A DNA stretch of 40,450 bases, taken from IMG/VR virus record IMGVR_UViG_647533158_000004; one strand, 5' to 3'. This stretch comes from a virus (lineage: Duplodnaviria; Heunggongvirae; Uroviricota; Caudoviricetes). Below are positions 1-9,363 of this stretch, one piece after another. How positions within the stretch are numbered: the first letter of the stretch is position 1; each line of letters starts with the position of its first letter. The translations under genes and the position numbers were made by a program. Under the pieces are notes generated by a model. The model was given only the letters and a program-made list of their open reading frames with translations. It did no database searches and had not been told where the DNA came from.

Positions 1-1053
1 TCATAAGAATGCTTTAATCAGTTCTTTTGTGCGCGTGGTTCGTTGTGGTAGCTTGGTTGTTGATGATAAACAACTTGTTACATAGGCTGCATAAGGGCCA
101 TCTTCGTCCTGAATTTCATGGGCATCAGCCATCTCTAAGAGAATCGGAATTACACGGGAAGGATTTACATCAAAGTTTGGGTTAGCCGTGAAACCGAGTT
201 CATTTTCAAGTTCATCACTTCCGGGGAAACCAAATTTTAATGCGGTAATAGCACAAAATAATGAGTGAACAACATACGATTTCATCATAAATGAATTACG
301 TAATTCGGAAAAATCTTCCGCCAATAAATTGAAGAAATAATCAATTCTCTCGTTATAGATATTCTCTAAAGGAAAATCATCATCGTATTTTTTATAAATA
401 GCTTCGGTTGCAGGTGCCGACTTTGAACAAAGCCCTCTATCAATGAGTATTGCCATATCTGAGATAAATTCTGCATCACCCATTCTGGCTAATATTTTGG
501 GTGACAATATATTATAAATCTCTAAAAGCTCAGCGTGGGTATCTGCTTTTTCAACGATATACCACTTAAATGCACCTTGAAAAGTAGCATGCCGTTTTTC
601 TGCTGATGTTAGTGGAGATGTATAAGCATTCATTCGTCTAAACATTTCGAGTAATTCAGCCCTGCTTGCTGAATAAACTGTGGATGTTTCAACTTGATAA
701 CTAATAAAACATCTTTTTGCATCATCGGGCAAATCATTAAAATACATGCCAGAATACTTCTTCGATGCCGAAGTAAGTGCAAATTTGTTTTTATAAAAAT
801 CAACGAGAGTTGTTACTCGTTGCTGGCCATCAACAATTTCTTTAATTGGCCTTTCGTTTGTCCTGTCAAATGCTTGATATAAATATATTTTGGGGAAAGG
901 ATAATTTTCTAGAATAGTGTCTATGAAATAACTCTTTGCAAATGGTGGCCATATTCCATTTCCGCGCTGATAATCCTTGTTAATTATTAGTTCTTTTCTC
1001 TCAAGCATTGAAATTAGATCAATTAATGTGATCTGCCCTACATTTGTATTCAT
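1..1053 (-). CDS. DUF262 (ParB/sulfiredoxin-like, DGQQR motif) protein; accessory gene downstream of int, candidate defence gene
   Basis: 350-aa ORF with N-terminal KDYQRG ... IVDGQQRVTTL motif typical of DUF262 as found in GmrSD/SspE-type proteins; no recognisable HNH/DUF1524 C-terminal domain. AGGAG 7 nt upstream of ATG; AT-rich relative to neighbours. Confidence 0.75.
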   Translation of the reverse strand: MNTNVGQITLIDLISMLERKELIINKDYQRGNGIWPPFAKSYFIDTILENYPFPKIYLYQAFDRTNERPIKEIVDGQQRVTTLVDFYKNKFALTSASKKYSGMYFNDLPDDAKRCFISYQVETSTVYSASRAELLEMFRRMNAYTSPLTSAEKRHATFQGAFKWYIVEKADTHAELLEIYNILSPKILARMGDAEFISDMAILIDRGLCSKSAPATEAIYKKYDDDFPLENIYNERIDYFFNLLAEDFSELRNSFMMKSYVVHSLFCAITALKFGFPGSDELENELGFTANPNFDVNPSRVIPILLEMADAHEIQDEDGPYAAYVTSCLSSTTKLPQRTTRTKELIKAFL

Positions 1054-4618: not shown

Positions 4619-4760
4619 AAAAAGGACGGTACCAGCCGGAAGCAAGGGTACAAGCTGGTACCGCCAAGACTACACACAGCAATGAAACTATTGCCTGTCT
4701 TTTCACCACTTCAGGCTCGGTGGTATGCTGGAGTTCTCACACAGCCAGCAAGGAAACCTA

Positions 4761-5102
4761 ATGAACCAGTTTTATGTTCACGTTCGTCTGTTTGAAGCAA
4801 CAGCCGAACAGACCAAAAAATTTGAAGAATTAATGCTTAACTTTCTGTACCAGAAAACAATCAAAGAGTCTGACGATAGCTGCTGCAGACTGATTCCAGA
4901 GGGATATATCCTCAAAAGCACAATGAACTGCCAACAAATCCTTGATCAAACTTTTTCCATTGCTAACAGTGCTGGTGTTGACGCAAATATATTTGTCTGC
5001 AAATTTGAACAAAGCGCATGCTTACTTCCGTCTGCTTCCTTAGTTGGCAACGATTTTGTTCATCACGATCTTACGCCTAAGCCCATCAAGCTCGATTCTT
5101 AA
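4761..5102 (+). CDS. Hypothetical protein (YmfI-like), antisense to the leftward operon
   Basis: 114 aa from ATG 4761 with AAGGAA upstream; overlaps 3' end of the convergent 5040..5348 gene by 63 bp. Confidence 0.4.
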   Translation: MNQFYVHVRLFEATAEQTKKFEELMLNFLYQKTIKESDDSCCRLIPEGYILKSTMNCQQILDQTFSIANSAGVDANIFVCKFEQSACLLPSASLVGNDFVHHDLTPKPIKLDS

Positions 5103-5348
5103 TGCCTTAACCATTGTGTCGTGATAAACACGGCTCACCCTCTCTCCATTGCATGGCAGGGGGGTGATCGTGTTAGCCATGAAATTCATGAACTTGGTTC
5201 GATCAGGATCTTGCGCCCCGCAAGTCTTTAATGCCTGTTTTGCTAACAAAATACGGGCCTCAGTGCCTGCATTTGGCTCTATCTGCTGCAAACGTTTAGC
5301 GTCTTCCAGCAACAATGCGATCACATGCTTCAAATCCTGCTCATTCAT
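5040..5348 (-). CDS. Hypothetical protein (YmfJ-like), first gene of leftward early operon
   Basis: 102 aa; GGAGAG upstream of ATG; immediately downstream (leftward) of OL region. Confidence 0.6.
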   Translation of the reverse strand: MNEQDLKHVIALLLEDAKRLQQIEPNAGTEARILLAKQALKTCGAQDPDRTKFMNFMANTITPLPCNGERVSRVYHDTMVKALRIELDGLRRKIVMNKIVAN

Positions 5349-5445
5349 CTATTCTCTCCACTGAAATCATCCGCTAACGAATCATCCCGGTCTTCGTACG
5401 TACCGGGCGGGCTACTTCGTGGGTGTCCTGCCTGTTCGTTGTCTT

Positions 5446-5503
5446 AACACCTTTAAGTTGTAATTTAGTTGTGGTTTTGAATGTTGTCAACAACTTTATG
5501 TGG
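5446..5503. promoter_or_regulatory. Putative OL operator cluster and PL region
   Basis: AACACCTTTAAGTTGT (5446-5461) and ACAACTTTATGT (5490-5501) are both repeated almost exactly in the cI-cro intergenic region. Confidence 0.5.
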
Positions 5504-5553
5504 TTTGAACGAGTAGCCAAGGAGTGCAAGGATTATCAAAAAAAGGAGGTTGT

Positions 5554-6444
5554 ATGGAAGACGCGCTTTACGCTTTTAATTACACACAGAACCGGGACAA
5601 GTTATTTGCTAACTTGATTAGCATCATTGATGGAATCATTGCAGATGGAGTTGTCCGTGAAGAGGAGGTTCTTTACTTAGATACATGGTTACTTGAAGCA
5701 AAGCAGATTATCAATAATGGAGTTATAAAAAGTCTATCTGCTCGGGTGTCGGATATTCTTGCGGATGGAATAATCACATCAGAAGAACGTGATGACCTTA
5801 AAAATAGCCTTCTCCAAATACAGAGGGAAATTCTTGATATCCCTGAAATTGATTTTTACTCCAAGGATGTAGATGTCCATTTACTTAATGGACTATGTAA
5901 AGGATTAATTGCTGATCGGAACTTAACTCAAGAAGAAATAAGATATCTTAATTGGTGGCTTGAGCAAAATGGAGCTTTGAAGAACAACTACCCAGGAAAA
6001 AAACTTTATGCACTTGTAAAGGAAATTCTTAAAGATGGTGTTATTACTGAAGATGAGAGTTTAACTCTACATAAGGCATTAGTAGACTTCACAGGATGTG
6101 ACTTGGAAAGTGGGGTGGTGGATGGTTTGGCGACCAGGCTGCCTATTGATGTAGGGGCTTCGATAGAGTTAGAGGGTAAAACCTATTGTCTTACAGGCAC
6201 TTTTGTTGCAGGAAAGAGAGCCGTAGTTGAAAATTTGATTAAAAATGCTGGTGGGAACATCAGTAGTGGAATTACTCAAAAGTTGGATTTTTTAGTAATT
6301 GGGACGCTTTCCTCCCGTGATTGGAAATTCTCTAGTCACGGAAGGAAGATCGAAAAGGCTATATCTTATAGGGATGATAATGGTGCAAAACTTAAAATTA
6401 TTTCTGAAGAAATGCTTTTCGATGCATTACCAAGTTCGCGATGA
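5554..6444 (+). CDS. Accessory protein with four tandem ADG-motif repeats (TerB-like) and a C-terminal BRCT-like domain
   Basis: AGGAGG then ATG at 5554. Four ~35-aa repeats (IIADGVVREEE / ILADGIITSEE / LIADRNLTQEE / ILKDGVITEDE). C-terminus GKTYCLTGTF ... LDFLVIGT ... KIEKA resembles the BRCT domain of NAD-dependent DNA ligase. AT-rich; convergent with cI and overlaps it by 18 bp. Confidence 0.8.
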   Translation: MEDALYAFNYTQNRDKLFANLISIIDGIIADGVVREEEVLYLDTWLLEAKQIINNGVIKSLSARVSDILADGIITSEERDDLKNSLLQIQREILDIPEIDFYSKDVDVHLLNGLCKGLIADRNLTQEEIRYLNWWLEQNGALKNNYPGKKLYALVKEILKDGVITEDESLTLHKALVDFTGCDLESGVVDGLATRLPIDVGASIELEGKTYCLTGTFVAGKRAVVENLIKNAGGNISSGITQKLDFLVIGTLSSRDWKFSSHGRKIEKAISYRDDNGAKLKIISEEMLFDALPSSR

Positions 6445-7113
6445 CCAGAATACCCTACCTATAACATGAATTCTGGCTCGTCTATCTTCAAAGGTGAGTA
6501 TTTCATCTGGGTACTCATCTTTGTTGAAGCTTCTAAGAATCAAGCCACCGTCAGGTAAGTTGATAAGTATTTTAACCCTTAGCAATACACCATCTCGTAC
6601 GGCATAAAGATCGCCATCACGAATAGGAACGGTTTGAGAAATATCAACGGCAACAAGATCTCCATTATTGAGAACCGGTAATAAACTGTTCCCCCATATT
6701 TGTACGATCTTGGCATTAGATGCACATACGCCAGATTTTCTCAAATCTGCTCTTCTTAACGGAAACCAGTCAATAGCTGATTCAACTATTTCAGCCAGAC
6801 ATCCGTTACCTGCCGATAACTCGACATCTAAAACAGGAATGTTTACGAAAATATCGGGGTCTAATGCGGTGCTTTCTGCTTCTTTTACAACAAGATCAGG
6901 TATGGATGCGTTGTCTTCAATACCAAGTTGTAACCACTTTTGTGATACACCTAAAACTTTTGCAATTTCTTTAATTTTGCGCGGTTGTAGAGTTTCGCCA
7001 TTCTCTATTTTGGCTACAGATTGTTGTGAAAGTCCAATTTTTTCAGCTAGTTGAGCTTGGCTCATGCCAGCTTTCTCTCTACCTATCTTTAATCGTTCTG
7101 CCAGTGTTTTCAC
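6427..7113 (-). CDS. cI: CI-type repressor (XRE HTH plus S24 LexA-like peptidase domain)
   Basis: GTG start with GAGGG RBS; N-terminal HTH (SQAQLAEKIGLSQQSVAKIE) and C-terminal S24 autocleavage domain. Confidence 0.9.
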   Translation of the reverse strand: MKTLAERLKIGREKAGMSQAQLAEKIGLSQQSVAKIENGETLQPRKIKEIAKVLGVSQKWLQLGIEDNASIPDLVVKEAESTALDPDIFVNIPVLDVELSAGNGCLAEIVESAIDWFPLRRADLRKSGVCASNAKIVQIWGNSLLPVLNNGDLVAVDISQTVPIRDGDLYAVRDGVLLRVKILINLPDGGLILRSFNKDEYPDEILTFEDRRARIHVIGRVFWSSRTW

Positions 7114-7138
7114 AACATATCCCTCTCTTTTTTGATGA

Positions 7139-7239
7139 GGTTACAACTTTATGTTTTAGCTTTCCAACACCTAAAAGTTGTGGTGAAAGTTGTTAATGTT
7201 GTATTCTTGCAGCTCGTAACAACTTAACTACCAAAAAAG
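7139..7239. promoter_or_regulatory. Putative OR operators with divergent PRM/PR
   Basis: ACAACTTTATGT (7143-7154), AACACCTAAAAGTTGT (7166-7181) and further AAGTTGT/ACAACTT half-sites between cI and cro. Confidence 0.55.
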
Positions 7240-7248
7240 GAGAAAGCT

Positions 7249-7497
7249 ATGACACCTGAGCAATTAGCCTTATCGGAGGCAATCGCTCTGGCTGGTGGTC
7301 AATCAGAATTGGCTCGGAAGCTCACAGCCAGCAGCGGTCATTTAGTAAAGCAACAACATGTCTGGAACTGGTTGAACAGAGAAAAGCGTCCCCCTGCAAA
7401 GCTCTCGATATTCATTGAAAAGACCACTGGCATATCAAAAGAAAAATTACGTCCAGATATTTTTCAAAAGATTAAAGATTCATCAGATGAAAAGTAA
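7249..7497 (+). CDS. cro: Cro-like repressor (YdaS/DUF1019-type HTH)
   Basis: 82 aa, AAGGAG RBS; HTH similar to Rac YdaS-type Cro proteins; divergent from cI. Confidence 0.85.
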   Translation: MTPEQLALSEAIALAGGQSELARKLTASSGHLVKQQHVWNWLNREKRPPAKLSIFIEKTTGISKEKLRPDIFQKIKDSSDEK

Positions 7498-7519
7498 CCA
7501 CAGTTTTAAGGAGATAGCC

Positions 7520-8077
7520 GTGGGTAAGCATCACTGGAAAATAGAAAAACAGCCTGAGTGGTACGTGAAAGCTGTCAGAAAAACTATCGCGGCGTTGCCG
7601 GGGGGTTACGCTGAAGCCGCTGACTGGCTGGATGTAACAGAGAACGCTTTATTCAACCGCCTTCGTGCAGATGGCGATCAGATTTTCCCGCTGGGATGGG
7701 CAATGGTTTTACAGCGTGCTGGTGGCACTCACTTCATTGCTGATGCTGTGGCGCAGTCTGCAAATGGCGTCTTTGTGTCTCTTCCTGACGTCGAGGATGT
7801 GGACAACGCCGATATTAACCAGCGTCTGCTGGAAGTCATTGAACAGATCGGCAGTTATTCAAAACAGATTCGTTCAGCAATCGAAGACGGCGTAGTGGAA
7901 CCGCATGAGAAGACAGCAATTAACGACGAGCTGTATCTCTCAATTTCGAAGCTGCAGGAGCATGCAGCACTTGTCTACAAAATTTTTTGCATTTCAGAAA
8001 GTAATGACGCCCGCGAGTGTGCAGCTCCGGGCGTCGTGGCGTCGATTGCTTCTGGTTGTGGAGAAACTAACGCATGA
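7520..8077 (+). CDS. CII-position regulatory protein (YdaT/YmfL-like)
   Basis: GTG start at 7520 preceded by AAGGAG; 186 aa; position directly after cro. Confidence 0.65.
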
Positions 8078-8412
8078 ACAGTTTAACAACACACTACCGT
8101 CGCTCGCAACTGATTGCGCTTCCTGTACCGGGTGGAAAAGCGAAGGTGGAATATTGCTATGCAGTGAATGTACCAGGTGACAGGGAAATTGTAACCCACA
8201 GCTTTGCAGAGTGGGCTGTGGGTGATTTCAACCGGCAGAAGGAGACAGTCCTTTGCGACAAGTTAACCGCTGGTTCAAAGATCACTACGGAGTGCTCGTC
8301 AGAGTCATTCGTTGGGAGCCGGAAACACAACGGGTTATCTACCTCCGCGAAGGTTATGAGCATGAATGCTTCAGTCCGCTCGAACAGTTTCGTCGTAAAT
8401 TCAGGGAAATAG
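8074..8412 (+). CDS. Hypothetical protein (YmfM-like)
   Basis: ATGA start/stop overlap with upstream gene suggests coupling; C-terminal half is low complexity and an alternative frame looks more protein-like (see findings). Confidence 0.45.
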
Positions 8413-8421
8413 AGGTCGGTC

Positions 8422-9363
8422 ATGAGCACTAAATTAACCGGCTATGTATGGGATGGTTGCGCTGCATCAGGCATGAAGTTATCCAGCGTGGCAATTATGG
8501 CCCGCCTGGCTGATTTCAGTAATGACGAAGGTGTGTGCTGGCCATCAATTGAAACCATTGCCCGTCAGATTGGCGCGGGGATGAGTACCGTCAGAACGGC
8601 TATCGCACGGCTGGAAGCAGAAGGCTGGTTAACGCGTAAGGCGCGTCGCCAGGGTAACCGCAATGCGTCGAATGTTTATCAGCTTAACGTTGCGAAGCTT
8701 CAGGCAGCGGCATTTTCTCAACTGTCAGATTCTGACCCGTCAAAATCTGACGCATCAAAATCTGACCCGTCAAAATTTGATGCGTCGAAATCTGGCAAAA
8801 AAGCGGGTTTTCACCCGTCAGAATCTGGCGGGGATCCGTCAGTAAAATCAAAACATGATCCGTCAGATAAAAAACCTTCTCGTCCGGACGCTTCGCAACC
8901 GGACACGCAGACGGATGAACAGGATTTTTTAACTCGCCATCCTGATGCGGTTGTATTCAGCCCTAAAAAGCGCCAGTGGGGGACGCAGGATGATTTGACC
9001 TGCGCACAGTGGCTCTGGAAAAAAATCATCGCCCTGTACGAGCATGCCGCCGAATGTGACGGCGAGGTGGTTCGTCCCAAAGAACCGAACTGGACAGCCT
9101 GGGCAAACGAAATTCGCCTGATGTGTGTGCAGGATGGTCGTACTCATAAACAAATCTGCGAGATGTACAGCCGCGTCAGTCGCGATCCGTTCTGGTGCCG
9201 TAACGTGCTCAGCCCGTCGAAGCTGCGGGAAAAATGGGATGAGCTTTCCCTGCGCTTATCGCCGTCCGTCAGCACGTACACCGAAAAACGCGAAGACCCG
9301 TACTTCAAAGCCAGTTACGACAACGTGGACTACAGCCAGATCCCAGCAGGATTCAGGGGGTGA
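8422..9363 (+). CDS. Replication initiation protein (O-like, N-terminal winged HTH)
   Basis: 313 aa; HTH N-terminus, low-complexity linker encoded by tandem DNA repeats, conserved C-terminal domain. Confidence 0.8.
   Translation: MSTKLTGYVWDGCAASGMKLSSVAIMARLADFSNDEGVCWPSIETIARQIGAGMSTVRTAIARLEAEGWLTRKARRQGNRNASNVYQLNVAKLQAAAFSQLSDSDPSKSDASKSDPSKFDASKSGKKAGFHPSESGGDPSVKSKHDPSDKKPSRPDASQPDTQTDEQDFLTRHPDAVVFSPKKRQWGTQDDLTCAQWLWKKIIALYEHAAECDGEVVRPKEPNWTAWANEIRLMCVQDGRTHKQICEMYSRVSRDPFWCRNVLSPSKLREKWDELSLRLSPSVSTYTEKREDPYFKASYDNVDYSQIPAGFRG
8722..8875 (+). repeat. Iteron-like tandem repeats inside the initiator gene (putative origin)
   Basis: About eight degenerate ~15-bp units (CCGTCAAAATCTGAC-like) in tandem, followed by A-rich sequence. 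Confidence 0.55.

What the first reader, a model, noticed from the sequence alone, without database searches (positions are those of the whole stretch)
5349..6444. Repeat-plus-BRCT protein inserted between OL and cI: candidate undescribed immunity-region system
A 296-aa protein has four tandem ~35-aa repeats with a conserved ADG-x-(I/V)T-x-EE core, as in TerB-like domains, and a C-terminal BRCT-like domain resembling that of NAD-dependent ligase. BRCT domains bind nicked or phosphorylated DNA or phosphoproteins and I know of no characterised phage immunity-region protein of this type. It sits in the classic accessory slot beside cI (where lambda has rexAB), is AT-rich, and is an insertion relative to e14, where the ymfJ equivalent directly abuts the repressor. 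It is transcribed convergently with cI (18-bp overlap) and starts ~50 bp from the OL operator motifs, so it may be CI-controlled.
Basis: partly seen in the sequence, partly recalled or inferred. Interest (0 to 1): 0.8.

Follow-up and report, generated by a model that had tools for sequence, protein, structure and literature searches.

The report
Prophage BRCT protein paired with cI
A real, well-conserved prophage gene beside the cI repressor encodes two small helical bundles plus a BRCT domain of the DNA-end-binding type. Its relatives lie in the lysogeny operons of other temperate phages (for example orf2 of Vibrio phage K139), so it is most likely a lysogen-made protein that blocks superinfecting phages, by a mechanism nobody has worked out.

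Summary
Window 5554-6444 (+) encodes a 296-aa protein with four DG-x-[IV]-[TS]-x-x-E helix units, arranged as two duplicated four-helix bundles, followed by a genuine BRCT domain. The BRCT domain is closest to RFC1 and LigA and keeps their 5'-phosphate pocket residues. The gene ends 18 bp inside cI and starts 50 bp from a conserved CI-type operator.

Three corrections:
- The TerB likeness is only weakly supported.
- The gene is not an insertion into e14. The whole immunity module (5443-7518) is swapped.
- It is not without precedent. It is 33% identical over its full length to orf2 of Vibrio phage K139, which lies in the mapped lysogenic operon cI-orf2-glo-int. That slot is a published defence hotspot.

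In Enterobacterales the gene is convergent with cI in 15/15 genome loci and 77/80 viral loci. In 24 E. coli genomes the same module carries an internally deleted copy, so the gene is accessory. A conserved upstream promoter copies the geometry of this phage's PRM, which suggests CI activates it.

Relatives fused to a DEDDh exonuclease match the PADLOC candidate PDC-S48. Other relatives are chromosomal singletons.

Best reading: a lysogen-expressed protein that binds DNA termini and excludes superinfecting phages. The mechanism is untested. Novelty: new member of a known kind.

The parts
5447..5461 (.). CI-type operator in the OL region: 15-bp near-palindrome ACACCTTTAAGTTGT
   Evidence: Invariant block in the alignment of upstream regions from five genera. 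The same 15-mer class occurs at OR, 7167-7181. Six of the ten AAGTTGT heptamers in the window lie in OL or OR.
5462..5490 (-). PL, the leftward early promoter: -35 TTGACA (5490-5485), 17-nt spacer, -10 TAAATT (5467-5462)
   Evidence: 10/12 consensus match. Both hexamers lie in invariant columns.
5490..5504 (.). Second operator, ACAACTTTATGTGGT. It sits between the PL -35 and the candidate promoter of the BRCT gene.
   Evidence: Invariant across Escherichia, Citrobacter, Serratia, Providencia and Rosenbergiella. Nearly identical to the OR site at 7143-7157.
5505..5533 (+). Candidate promoter of the BRCT gene: -35 TTGAAC, 17-nt spacer ending in TG-n, -10 AAGGAT. The operator is centred near -43.
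   Evidence: GTTTGA and AGGAT are invariant while the spacer varies. The geometry matches the predicted PRM. It was not picked up by the consensus scan because the -10 matches only 3/6. Inferred, not shown.
5543..5549 (+). Shine-Dalgarno sequence AAGGAGG
   Evidence: Sequence; conserved.
5554..6444 (+). CDS for the 296-aa repeat-plus-BRCT protein (WP_000389078.1)
5581..5835 (+). First four-helix bundle (aa 10-94; repeat units 1 and 2; conserved D31/E38 and D71/E78)
   Evidence: AF2 model of aa 1-200: pLDDT 85.9, pTM 0.85. Conservation. Duplication statistics.
5863..6093 (+). Second four-helix bundle (aa 104-180; repeat units 3 and 4; conserved D121/E128 and D161/E168)
6166..6426 (+). BRCT domain (aa 205-291). 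T214, G215, R222 and the S254-R255-D256-W257 loop form the putative phosphate pocket.
   Evidence: Pfam, Foldseek and the HMM alignment to the RFC1 BRCT. Invariant G215, W257, G263 and K265. Domain pI is 9.2.
6427..6444 (.). 18-bp overlap of the convergent 3' ends of the BRCT gene and cI
   Evidence: Overlaps of 9, 15 or 18 nt occur in 76 of 80 viral loci.
6427..7113 (-). cI repressor (228 aa; HTH_3 plus Peptidase_S24), the constant partner of the gene in Enterobacterales
7138..7181 (-). Predicted PRM with its activating operator: ACAACTTTTAGGTGT (7181-7167), -35 TGGAAA (7166-7161), 17-nt spacer, -10 TAACCT (7143-7138). A second operator at 7143-7157 lies inside the spacer and -10.
   Evidence: Sequence; invariant across genera. 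Used as the internal comparison for the BRCT-gene promoter.

Best explanation
The gene encodes a soluble 33-kDa protein with two parts.

**Acidic N-terminal half.** It consists of two duplicated four-helix bundles. Each bundle carries two DG-x-[IV]-[TS]-x-x-E loops, whose Asp and Glu are the best-conserved residues. I infer a metal- or ligand-binding or partner-binding module, only distantly TerB-like.

**Basic C-terminal BRCT domain.** It belongs to the RFC1/LigA class and retains the Thr-Gly...Arg...(Lys/Arg) pocket. In RFC1 that pocket grips the 5'-phosphate of a DNA end or nick.

**Proposed role.** It is an accessory gene of the lysogeny control module and is made in the lysogen. In this lambdoid type it would be transcribed from its own weak promoter, which CI bound at 5490-5504 probably activates as it does PRM. 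In K139-like and Aeromonas P2-like phages it is simply co-transcribed after cI.

I propose that it protects the lysogen against superinfecting phages. It would bind 5'-phosphorylated termini or nicks of incoming or replicating phage DNA and prevent their processing (sealing or circularisation, or replication). It could do this by occlusion or by recruiting a host factor.

**What is shown:** gene reality, domain identity, conservation of pocket residues, constant linkage to repressors, dispensability, and membership of the K139 orf2 family.

**What is inferred:** expression in the lysogen of this phage, activation by CI, DNA-terminus binding, and the exclusion phenotype and its mechanism.
For: **Domains**
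- Pfam BRCT scores above the gathering cut-off.
- Foldseek top hits are the LigA, RFC1 p140 and XRCC1/Lig3 BRCT domains.
- In the profile alignment to the RFC1 BRCT, T214, G215, R222 and R255 fall on RFC1 T415, G416, R423 and K458.
- The BRCT half has pI 9.2 and the N-terminal half pI 4.4; there is no transmembrane segment.
- The N-terminal model is confident and shows two four-helix bundles. Internal duplication is highly significant. E38 and E128 are invariant, and D31, D121, D161 and E168 are at least 90% conserved across 51 diverse members.

**Lysogeny-module context in three unrelated phage types**
- Convergent with and overlapping cI in 15/15 enterobacterial genome loci and 77/80 IMG/VR loci, although the replication modules differ.
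- Directly downstream of cI and upstream of int in Aeromonas P2-like prophages.
- cI-orf2-glo-int in K139 and kappa, with a mapped lysogenic PL start and Glo annotated as a phage-exclusion protein.
- Next to int in Pseudomonas phages.
- The cI-int slot of K139-like phages is a published defence hotspot (PMC9122126).
- K139 CI is of the 186 type and has no S24 domain. The link is therefore to lysogenic expression and not to repressor self-cleavage.

**Promoter**
- The operator, TTGA -35, 17-nt spacer and AGGAT -10 are conserved across genera.
- They are laid out like the conserved PRM of the same phage.

**Accessory nature**
- Twenty-four E. coli genomes keep the module with a 714-bp internal deletion of the gene.

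**Targeting-module logic**
- Relatives carry a DEDDh exonuclease in front of the same bundle-plus-BRCT unit and match the PADLOC candidate PDC-S48.

**Selection**
- dN is 0.14-0.39 with saturated dS.

**From memory, unverified**
- Nesper et al. 1999 (J Bacteriol 181:2902) reported that K139 Orf2 is involved in preventing superinfection.
Against: - There is no enzymatic or membrane effector domain and no phenotype data for this protein.
- The window protein matches no validated defence model. Its only PADLOC hit is partial (profile positions 239-377 of 411 of PDC-S48), and PDC-S48 is itself only a candidate.
- Many family members are chromosomal singletons among housekeeping genes. One set lies in conserved synteny in SAR86/Pseudomonadales MAGs (TonB receptor, SPFH/NfeD, hydrolase). 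Others are in Vibrio and Aeromonas (BCCT transporter, LacI). These hint at a cellular DNA-metabolism role.
- The proposed promoter has a weak -10 and was not found by the consensus scan.
- Whether CI activates, ignores or represses that promoter cannot be told from sequence.
- The K139 Orf2 phenotype could not be checked, because the paper is not held.
- Pocket conservation does not separate DNA 5'-phosphate from a phosphoprotein or nucleotide ligand.
Confidence: 0.42

Rival explanations
1. Modulator of the lysis-lysogeny switch. The protein senses DNA damage (nicks, gaps or ends) through its BRCT domain and tunes repressor level or induction. Convergent transcription into the 3' end of cI could contribute.
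For: - It is constantly adjacent to repressor genes.
- The convergent genes overlap with no intervening terminator. The only terminator-like hairpin lies inside cI, at 6476-6499.
- A 2026 preprint notes, without data, prophage regulatory modules containing cI and BRCT genes and suggests they respond to DNA damage (PMC13345283).
- The BRCT gene and cI have diverged to similar extents, which suggests co-inheritance.
Against: - The partner repressors are of unrelated kinds: S24 type in two different orientations, and 186 type without S24.
- In K139 and Aeromonas the gene is co-directional with cI, so antisense interference is not a conserved feature.
- The switch survives without the gene in 24 E. 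coli genomes.
- Many homologues have no repressor nearby.
Confidence: 0.2
2. Cellular DNA-maintenance accessory factor, such as a nick or gap sensor or adaptor, that phages have picked up. As prophage cargo it improves host fitness or stress tolerance and does not act against other phages.
For: - Orthologues lie in conserved chromosomal synteny in streamlined SAR86-type genomes and as singletons among housekeeping genes in Vibrio and Aeromonas.
- Relatives are fused to a DnaQ-like exonuclease. There is weak similarity to the C-terminus of an epsilon-subunit-plus-BRCT protein, PRK06195.
Against: - Phage-borne copies sit specifically in lysogeny or exclusion slots, next to the known exclusion gene glo and in a published defence hotspot.
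- The gene is patchy: 47 of 5426 complete E. coli genomes have it, always on prophages.
Confidence: 0.15
3. Early lytic or establishment function. The promoter is repressed by CI, like PL. The protein acts just after infection or induction on the phage's own DNA ends or nicks, for example by protecting them or helping to seal them.
For: - The promoter shares the OL operator cluster with PL.
- The BRCT domain resembles that of the ligase that seals cohesive ends.
Against: - In K139 and Aeromonas the homologue is transcribed with cI from the lysogenic promoter.
- The operator is centred at about -43 and abuts the -35 without covering it, exactly as at the predicted PRM.
- The gene is dispensable in 24 genomes.
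Confidence: 0.1

Closest known systems
Orf2 of Vibrio cholerae phage K139 (= Kp3 of phage kappa; PHROG 3989)
   Same: Full-length homologue: 33% identity, BLASTP E 3e-48. It has the same two bundles plus BRCT, including the SRDW...GRKIE motif. The window protein matches phrog_3989 end to end (E 1.5e-128). Both are encoded in the lysogeny control module beside the repressor.
   Different: K139 orf2 is co-transcribed downstream of a 186-type CI, followed by glo and int. The window gene is convergent with an S24-type cI and has its own promoter at OL. The K139 phenotype (helps prevent superinfection) is recalled from the 1999 paper and was not verified here. No mechanism is known for either protein.
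PADLOC candidate PDC-S48 (DEDDh exonuclease + helical bundle + BRCT)
   Same: Shares the C-terminal half, one bundle plus BRCT (E 2.4e-7, profile positions 239-377 of 411). Relatives found with the N-terminal domain as query match PDC-S48 from the exonuclease onward: P0173 across profile positions 18-379 of 411 into the BRCT, P0164 and P0229 over the exonuclease and helical bundle.
   Different: The window protein has no exonuclease and has two bundles instead of one. PDC-S48 is itself only a computational candidate.
BRCT domains of RFC1 (p140) and NAD-dependent ligase LigA
   Same: Best sequence and fold matches. The residues that bind the DNA 5'-phosphate in RFC1 align with T214, G215, R222 and R255.
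   Different: No clamp-loader or ligase catalytic domains. NCBIfam LigA scores are 20-30 bits against cut-offs of 369-1051. The family has its own conserved SRDW loop insertion.
Lysogen-expressed exclusion genes in repressor-linked slots (lambda rexAB, P2 old/tin, K139 glo)
   Same: Same genomic logic: AT-rich accessory gene tied to the repressor region, dispensable for the switch, probably expressed in the lysogen.
   Different: No sequence or domain relationship. It is a single soluble protein with no membrane partner and no nuclease or ATPase domain.
TerB (PF05099) / DUF533 helical metal-binding domains
   Same: Recurrent DG......E helix-start motif. Nine of 51 family members hit TerB (best E 9.5e-5) and two hit DUF533.

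Membership tests
BRCT domain (Pfam PF00533) | Profile match above the curated cut-off | tested here: met
   29.0 bits against a cut-off of 21.3, aa 206-290. 46 of 51 diverse family members also match.
BRCT domain (Pfam PF00533) | BRCT alpha/beta fold | tested here: met
   The AF2 model has strand-helix-strand-strand-helix-strand-helix over aa 210-291. Foldseek probability is 1.0 to the RFC1, XRCC1, Lig3 and Rad4 BRCT domains, with target-normalised TM 0.57-0.61.
BRCT domain, phosphate-binding subclass (RFC1/LigA/BRCA1-like pocket) | Thr/Ser-Gly after strand 1, plus basic residues in helix 1 and at the start of helix 2 | tested here: met
   T214-G215, R222 and R255 align with RFC1 T415-G416, R423 and K458. 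G215 is invariant, T214 and R222 are at least 90% conserved in 51 diverse members, and R255 is invariant or nearly so in the A3 and A4 alignments. The roles of the RFC1 residues are from memory of the RFC1 BRCT-DNA studies.
BRCT domain, phosphate-binding subclass (RFC1/LigA/BRCA1-like pocket) | Actual binding of 5'-phosphorylated DNA or of a phospho-ligand | not testable with these tools
   Needs EMSA or fluorescence anisotropy with purified protein.
K139 Orf2 / PHROG 3989 family | Full-length homology with the same domain order | tested here: met
   phrog_3989 E 1.5e-128, positions 2-295 of 296. K139 Orf2 BLASTP E 3e-48 over aa 6-286.
K139 Orf2 / PHROG 3989 family | Encoded in the lysogeny control module next to the repressor | tested here: met
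K139 Orf2 / PHROG 3989 family | Contributes to preventing superinfection | not testable with these tools
   The phenotype is recalled from Nesper et al. 1999, and the paper could not be read here. Needs plaque and lysogenisation assays.
PADLOC PDC-S48 | N-terminal DEDDh (RNase T-like) exonuclease domain | tested here: not met
   No RNase_T or DEDDh hit. The match covers only profile positions 239-377 of 411. True members P0164, P0173 and P0229 have the exonuclease.
NAD-dependent DNA ligase LigA (a name some databases give to homologues) | Adenylation, OB-fold, zinc-finger and HhH domains; full-length equivalog score | tested here: not met
   Only the BRCT region matches, at 20-30 bits against cut-offs of 369-1051.
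TerB (PF05099) | Profile match of the protein itself | tested here: not met
   No TerB hit at E <= 1.
TerB (PF05099) | Family-level or fold-level relationship | tested here: inconclusive
lambda RexAB-type abortive-infection pair | Two-gene unit with a polytopic membrane protein | tested here: not met
   It is a single gene. The maximum 19-residue Kyte-Doolittle hydropathy is 1.52, in a segment that contains Asp. There is no conserved co-oriented partner.

The most novel reading that the evidence does not exclude
The two-bundle-plus-BRCT proteins are a widespread single-gene immunity factor with no nuclease. They recognise the 5'-phosphorylated cohesive ends or nicks of injected phage DNA and block sealing or circularisation, competing with the BRCT domain of host LigA. 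In lambdoid prophages the factor is wired to the repressor through a second, PRM-like, CI-activated promoter at OL.
Probability: 0.15. Interest if true: 0.8.

Novelty: new member of a known kind. Interest (0 to 1): 0.5.

Why it matters
The finding gives a domain-level identity to a 25-year-old orphan, K139 orf2: two acidic helical bundles plus a BRCT domain with a 5'-phosphate-type pocket. The same protein is fixed beside cI in a large group of enterobacterial prophages, in E. coli (including STEC strains), Citrobacter, Serratia, Klebsiella and Salmonella.

If it excludes phages by binding DNA termini without any nuclease, that would be an unusual defence principle. It would also explain why the same module is fused to an exonuclease in the PADLOC candidate PDC-S48.

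The predicted PRM-like promoter at OL is directly testable. If confirmed, it would be a second CI-activated promoter in a lambdoid immunity region.

Several databases label homologues 'NAD-dependent DNA ligase', and this is wrong.

Tried and rejected
- **Translation start.** My first coordinates (5555) were one base out of frame. I corrected them to 5554.
- **Nucleotide search of phage records.** Megablast of the region against INPHARED phages found nothing. Only the protein-level search found K139 and kappa.
- **Literature.** Searches for BRCT with prophage, anti-phage, defence, immunity region, TerB, PDC-S48 and the protein accession found no characterised function. One 'BRCT' hit was a false match to 'Brc_T12A'. 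GiPD474, a Gifsy immunity-region defence protein, is an ATPase and unrelated. DefensePredictor does not mention BRCT.
- **Papers not held.** Brenes & Laub 2025, Nesper 1999 and Kapfhammer 2002 could not be read. A Vibrio phage review does not mention K139.
- **The search for related loci with the 51-sequence alignment** failed because no stretch was conserved enough. It worked with a 12-sequence subset.
- **Conserved partner genes around distant homologues.** Short forms have heterogeneous, mostly unannotated, mobile-element-like neighbours (HTH, CI, AlpA, ParE, BrnT, Cas1, RadC), with no recurrent partner.
- **Inverted-repeat finder on OL and OR** returned nothing at its thresholds. I defined the operators from cross-genus alignment instead.
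- **dN/dS.** It could not be given as a ratio because dS is saturated.
- **Rejected readings.** A LigA fragment, a PDC-S48 member, a RexAB-like pair, and a simple insertion into e14.
Full report
**What is there.** The ORF runs from ATG 5554 to TGA 6444 on the + strand and encodes 296 aa. It follows AAGGAGG at 5543-5549. PGAP annotates the identical gene in E. coli FHI_NMBU_10 as 'BRCT domain-containing protein' WP_000389078.1. That prophage is e14-like and sits at icd, with the gene order int-xis-HD hydrolase-yfdQ-yfdP-ymfI/ymfJ-like | BRCT gene | cI | cro-like | ymfL. The stop codon lies 18 bp inside the 3' end of the convergent cI gene (6427-7113). GC is 38% against 49.5% for the window, and cI is 40%.

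The gene is real. There are 354 close homologues at 68-100% identity in Escherichia, Citrobacter, Serratia, Klebsiella, Salmonella, Enterobacter, Cronobacter and Plesiomonas. A search of 50%-identity cluster representatives with aa 1-200 finds 1097 at E <= 1e-3. Against orthologues, dN is 0.14-0.39 while synonymous sites are saturated.

**Domains.** Pfam BRCT scores 29 bits against a cut-off of 21.3, over aa 206-290. The first AF2 model (pLDDT 71.8) places a BRCT fold at aa 205-291. Foldseek against PDB returns LigA, the RFC1 p140 BRCT (alone and DNA-bound), and XRCC1/Lig3 and Rad4 BRCT domains.

A family profile aligns to the human RFC1 BRCT so that T214-G215, R222 and R255 fall on T415-G416, R423 and K458. 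To my knowledge of the RFC1 BRCT-DNA work, those residues hold the 5'-phosphate of DNA. G215, W257, G263 and K265 are invariant and T214 and R222 nearly so in 51 members at 27-45% identity. A family-specific loop, L(A/S)SRDW...S.GRKIE.A, is strongly conserved. The BRCT half is basic (pI 9.2) and the N-terminal half acidic (pI 4.4). There is no transmembrane segment.

The four repeats are real but are better described as a duplicated pair. Half against half scores 108 against 26 +/- 4.9 in shuffles (0 of 2000 reach it). Unit 1 resembles unit 3, and unit 2 resembles unit 4.

A second AF2 model of aa 1-200, built from a more diverse alignment, is confident (pLDDT 85.9, pTM 0.85). It shows two four-helix bundles. 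Their most conserved residues are the Asp and Glu of each DG-x-[IV]-[TS]-x-x-E motif.

**Relation to e14.** K-12 e14 matches window 4692-5442 (96%) and 7519-8655 (99%). The 2076 bp in between replace 1088 bp of e14, and the repressors are 24% identical. The gene is therefore part of an alternative immunity module and not an insertion.

**Linkage to repressors.** Every enterobacterial or morganellacean locus has the gene convergent with, and overlapping, a 228-aa-class HTH+S24 repressor. This holds although the replication modules differ (O/P-like in some, helicase-primase in others). The counts are 15/15 genome loci and 77/80 IMG/VR loci, with overlaps of 9, 15 or 18 nt. Two of the three exceptions are truncated copies that still have cI beside them. 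The BRCT gene and cI have diverged to similar extents.

The gene is dispensable. Of the 71 complete E. coli genomes with this cI type:
- 47 have the intact gene;
- one has a divergent intact copy;
- 24 share an allele in which window 5587-6300 is deleted. OL, the upstream promoter region (its -10 hexamer changed from AAGGAT to AAGGGT), the first codons and the last ~48 codons remain.

**Other phage types.**
- In Aeromonas P2-like prophages a 35%-identical homologue follows an S24-type cI directly and precedes a 232-aa ORF and int.
- A protein search of sequenced phages finds orf2 of Vibrio cholerae phage K139, kp3 of kappa, and their relatives VcP032, 919TP and VPUSM 8 (33% identity, 95% coverage, BLASTP E 3e-48).
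- The K139 record places orf2 in the lysogenic operon cI-orf2-glo-int. That operon starts at the PL promoter, whose transcription start is annotated, and Glo is annotated as a periplasmic phage-exclusion protein.
- K139 CI is of the 186 type and has no S24 domain.
- Rousset et al. 2022 describe the slot between cI and int of K139/PhiO18P-like phages as a defence hotspot in Vibrionaceae (PMC9122126).
- Pseudomonas phages carry a 217-aa form, one bundle plus BRCT, next to int.
- From memory only, the 1999 paper on the K139 control region stated that Orf2 is involved in preventing superinfection. I could not open it.

**Wider family.** Most members are about 290-305 aa. Other architectures are:
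- Short forms of about 205-225 aa with one bundle. They occur in many phyla, with heterogeneous, mobile-element-like neighbours.
- Shewanella proteins of 396 aa with an extra N-terminal BRCT, beside an integrase and an AAA+HNH pair.
- Proteins of 445-502 aa with an N-terminal DEDDh/RNase T exonuclease, which match the PADLOC candidate PDC-S48 from the exonuclease onward (P0173 across nearly the whole profile, 18-379 of 411). The window protein matches only the C-terminal third of that profile.
- Giants of about 1060-1070 aa with no other Pfam domain.

Not all members are phage-borne. SAR86/Pseudomonadales MAGs have the gene in conserved chromosomal synteny with a TonB receptor, SPFH/NfeD and a hydrolase. 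Vibrio and Aeromonas have singletons between a BCCT transporter or a LacI regulator and unrelated genes.

**Regulation (inferred from sequence).** I aligned the upstream region from five genera. It shows:
- two invariant 15-mers of one near-palindromic class, ACACCTTTAAGTTGT at 5447-5461 and ACAACTTTATGTGGT at 5490-5504. The same class occurs at OR, at 7143-7157 and 7167-7181;
- an invariant leftward PL, with -35 TTGACA at 5490-5485 and -10 TAAATT at 5467-5462;
- immediately right of the second operator, an invariant GTTTGA (-35 TTGAAC, 5505-5510), a variable 17-nt spacer, and an invariant AGGAT (-10 AAGGAT, 5528-5533; preceded by TG-n in most sequences). The leader is ATCAAAAAAAGGAGG.

The predicted PRM of the same phage is also invariant across genera and has the same layout. 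It has an operator at 7181-7167, -35 TGGAAA, a 17-nt spacer, -10 TAACCT, and the leader ATCAAAAAAGAGAGGG. In both promoters the operator is centred near -43, which is the position of lambda OR2 relative to PRM. By this analogy, CI bound at 5490-5504 would shut PL and stimulate the BRCT gene. That fits the in-operon arrangement in K139 and Aeromonas. The consensus scan did not detect this promoter, because its -10 matches only 3/6.

**Interpretation.** The best-supported reading is a lysogen-expressed accessory protein that binds DNA termini or nicks and interferes with superinfecting phage DNA (confidence about 0.4).

The rivals are:
- a modulator of induction or of the switch (0.2);
- a cellular DNA-maintenance factor carried as cargo (0.15);
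- a CI-repressed early function acting on the phage's own DNA (0.1).

The association with three unrelated repressor arrangements, the deletion allele and the repressor-free chromosomal copies argue against a dedicated switch component. The chromosomal orthologues and the absence of any effector domain are the main weaknesses of the defence reading.

**Novelty.** The protein belongs to the K139 orf2 / PHROG 3989 family, so it is a new member of a known kind. Three things seem not to have been described in anything I could search: the domain assignment, the near-obligate convergent pairing with cI in enterobacterial lambdoids, and the PRM-like promoter.

Noticed in passing
window 1-1053 (-), and L001 2994-3644: The gene between the icd attachment site and int encodes a DUF262 protein. 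It matches the PADLOC models NsnA (E 9e-32) and PD-T4-2_A (E 9e-14). With an adjacent 215-aa hypothetical just outside the window, it occupies the position where e14 carries lit. This is a second defence-type cargo slot in the same prophage.
   Followed up: partly
L094 3674-3990 (equivalent to window 5375-5586 joined to 6301 onward): Twenty-four complete E. coli genomes share one allele in which 714 bp inside the BRCT gene are deleted, while OL, cI and OR stay intact. The remnant's -10 hexamer has changed from AAGGAT to AAGGGT.
   Followed up: yes
window 5725-5829 (aa 58-92) and window 7519-8077 (ymfL): The second repeat unit weakly matches the NCBIfam YmfL family (E 1.6e-4) and PHROG CII-like or transcriptional-regulator families. 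The prophage's own YmfL contains a similar [10 protein letters not shown]...L segment. The DG....E helix unit may be shared with the CII-like protein of the same module.
   Followed up: no
window 6476-6499 (+): A terminator-like hairpin lies 32 nt past the BRCT stop codon, inside the cI coding region. No terminator lies between the convergent genes, so the two transcripts probably overlap as antisense.
   Followed up: no
L090 7913-8611 (Aeromonas P2-like prophage): A 232-aa ORF with no Pfam or PADLOC match follows the BRCT homologue and precedes int, in the position that glo holds in K139.
   Followed up: partly
L093 1-562 and 7001-8191 (Shewanella halifaxensis): There are two copies of a 396-aa variant with an extra N-terminal BRCT. 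One abuts an integrase, with an SMC_N/AAA_21 ATPase plus HNH pair nearby.
   Followed up: no
proteins P0185, P0197, P0254: Proteins of about 1060-1070 aa begin with the same double-bundle domain. P0185, the one scanned, has no Pfam or PADLOC match in its remaining ~900 residues.
   Followed up: no
L024-L041, L089 and related loci: SAR86/Pseudomonadales MAGs keep a ~297-aa orthologue in conserved chromosomal synteny with a TonB-dependent receptor, SPFH/NfeD, ABA4-like and hydrolase genes. No phage genes were recognised among the neighbours examined.
   Followed up: partly
database names of P0012, P0042, P0059, P0103-P0107 and phage kappa kp3: Several sources name members of this family 'NAD-dependent DNA ligase (LigA)'. 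Only the BRCT domain is shared, so the name is an annotation error.
   Followed up: yes
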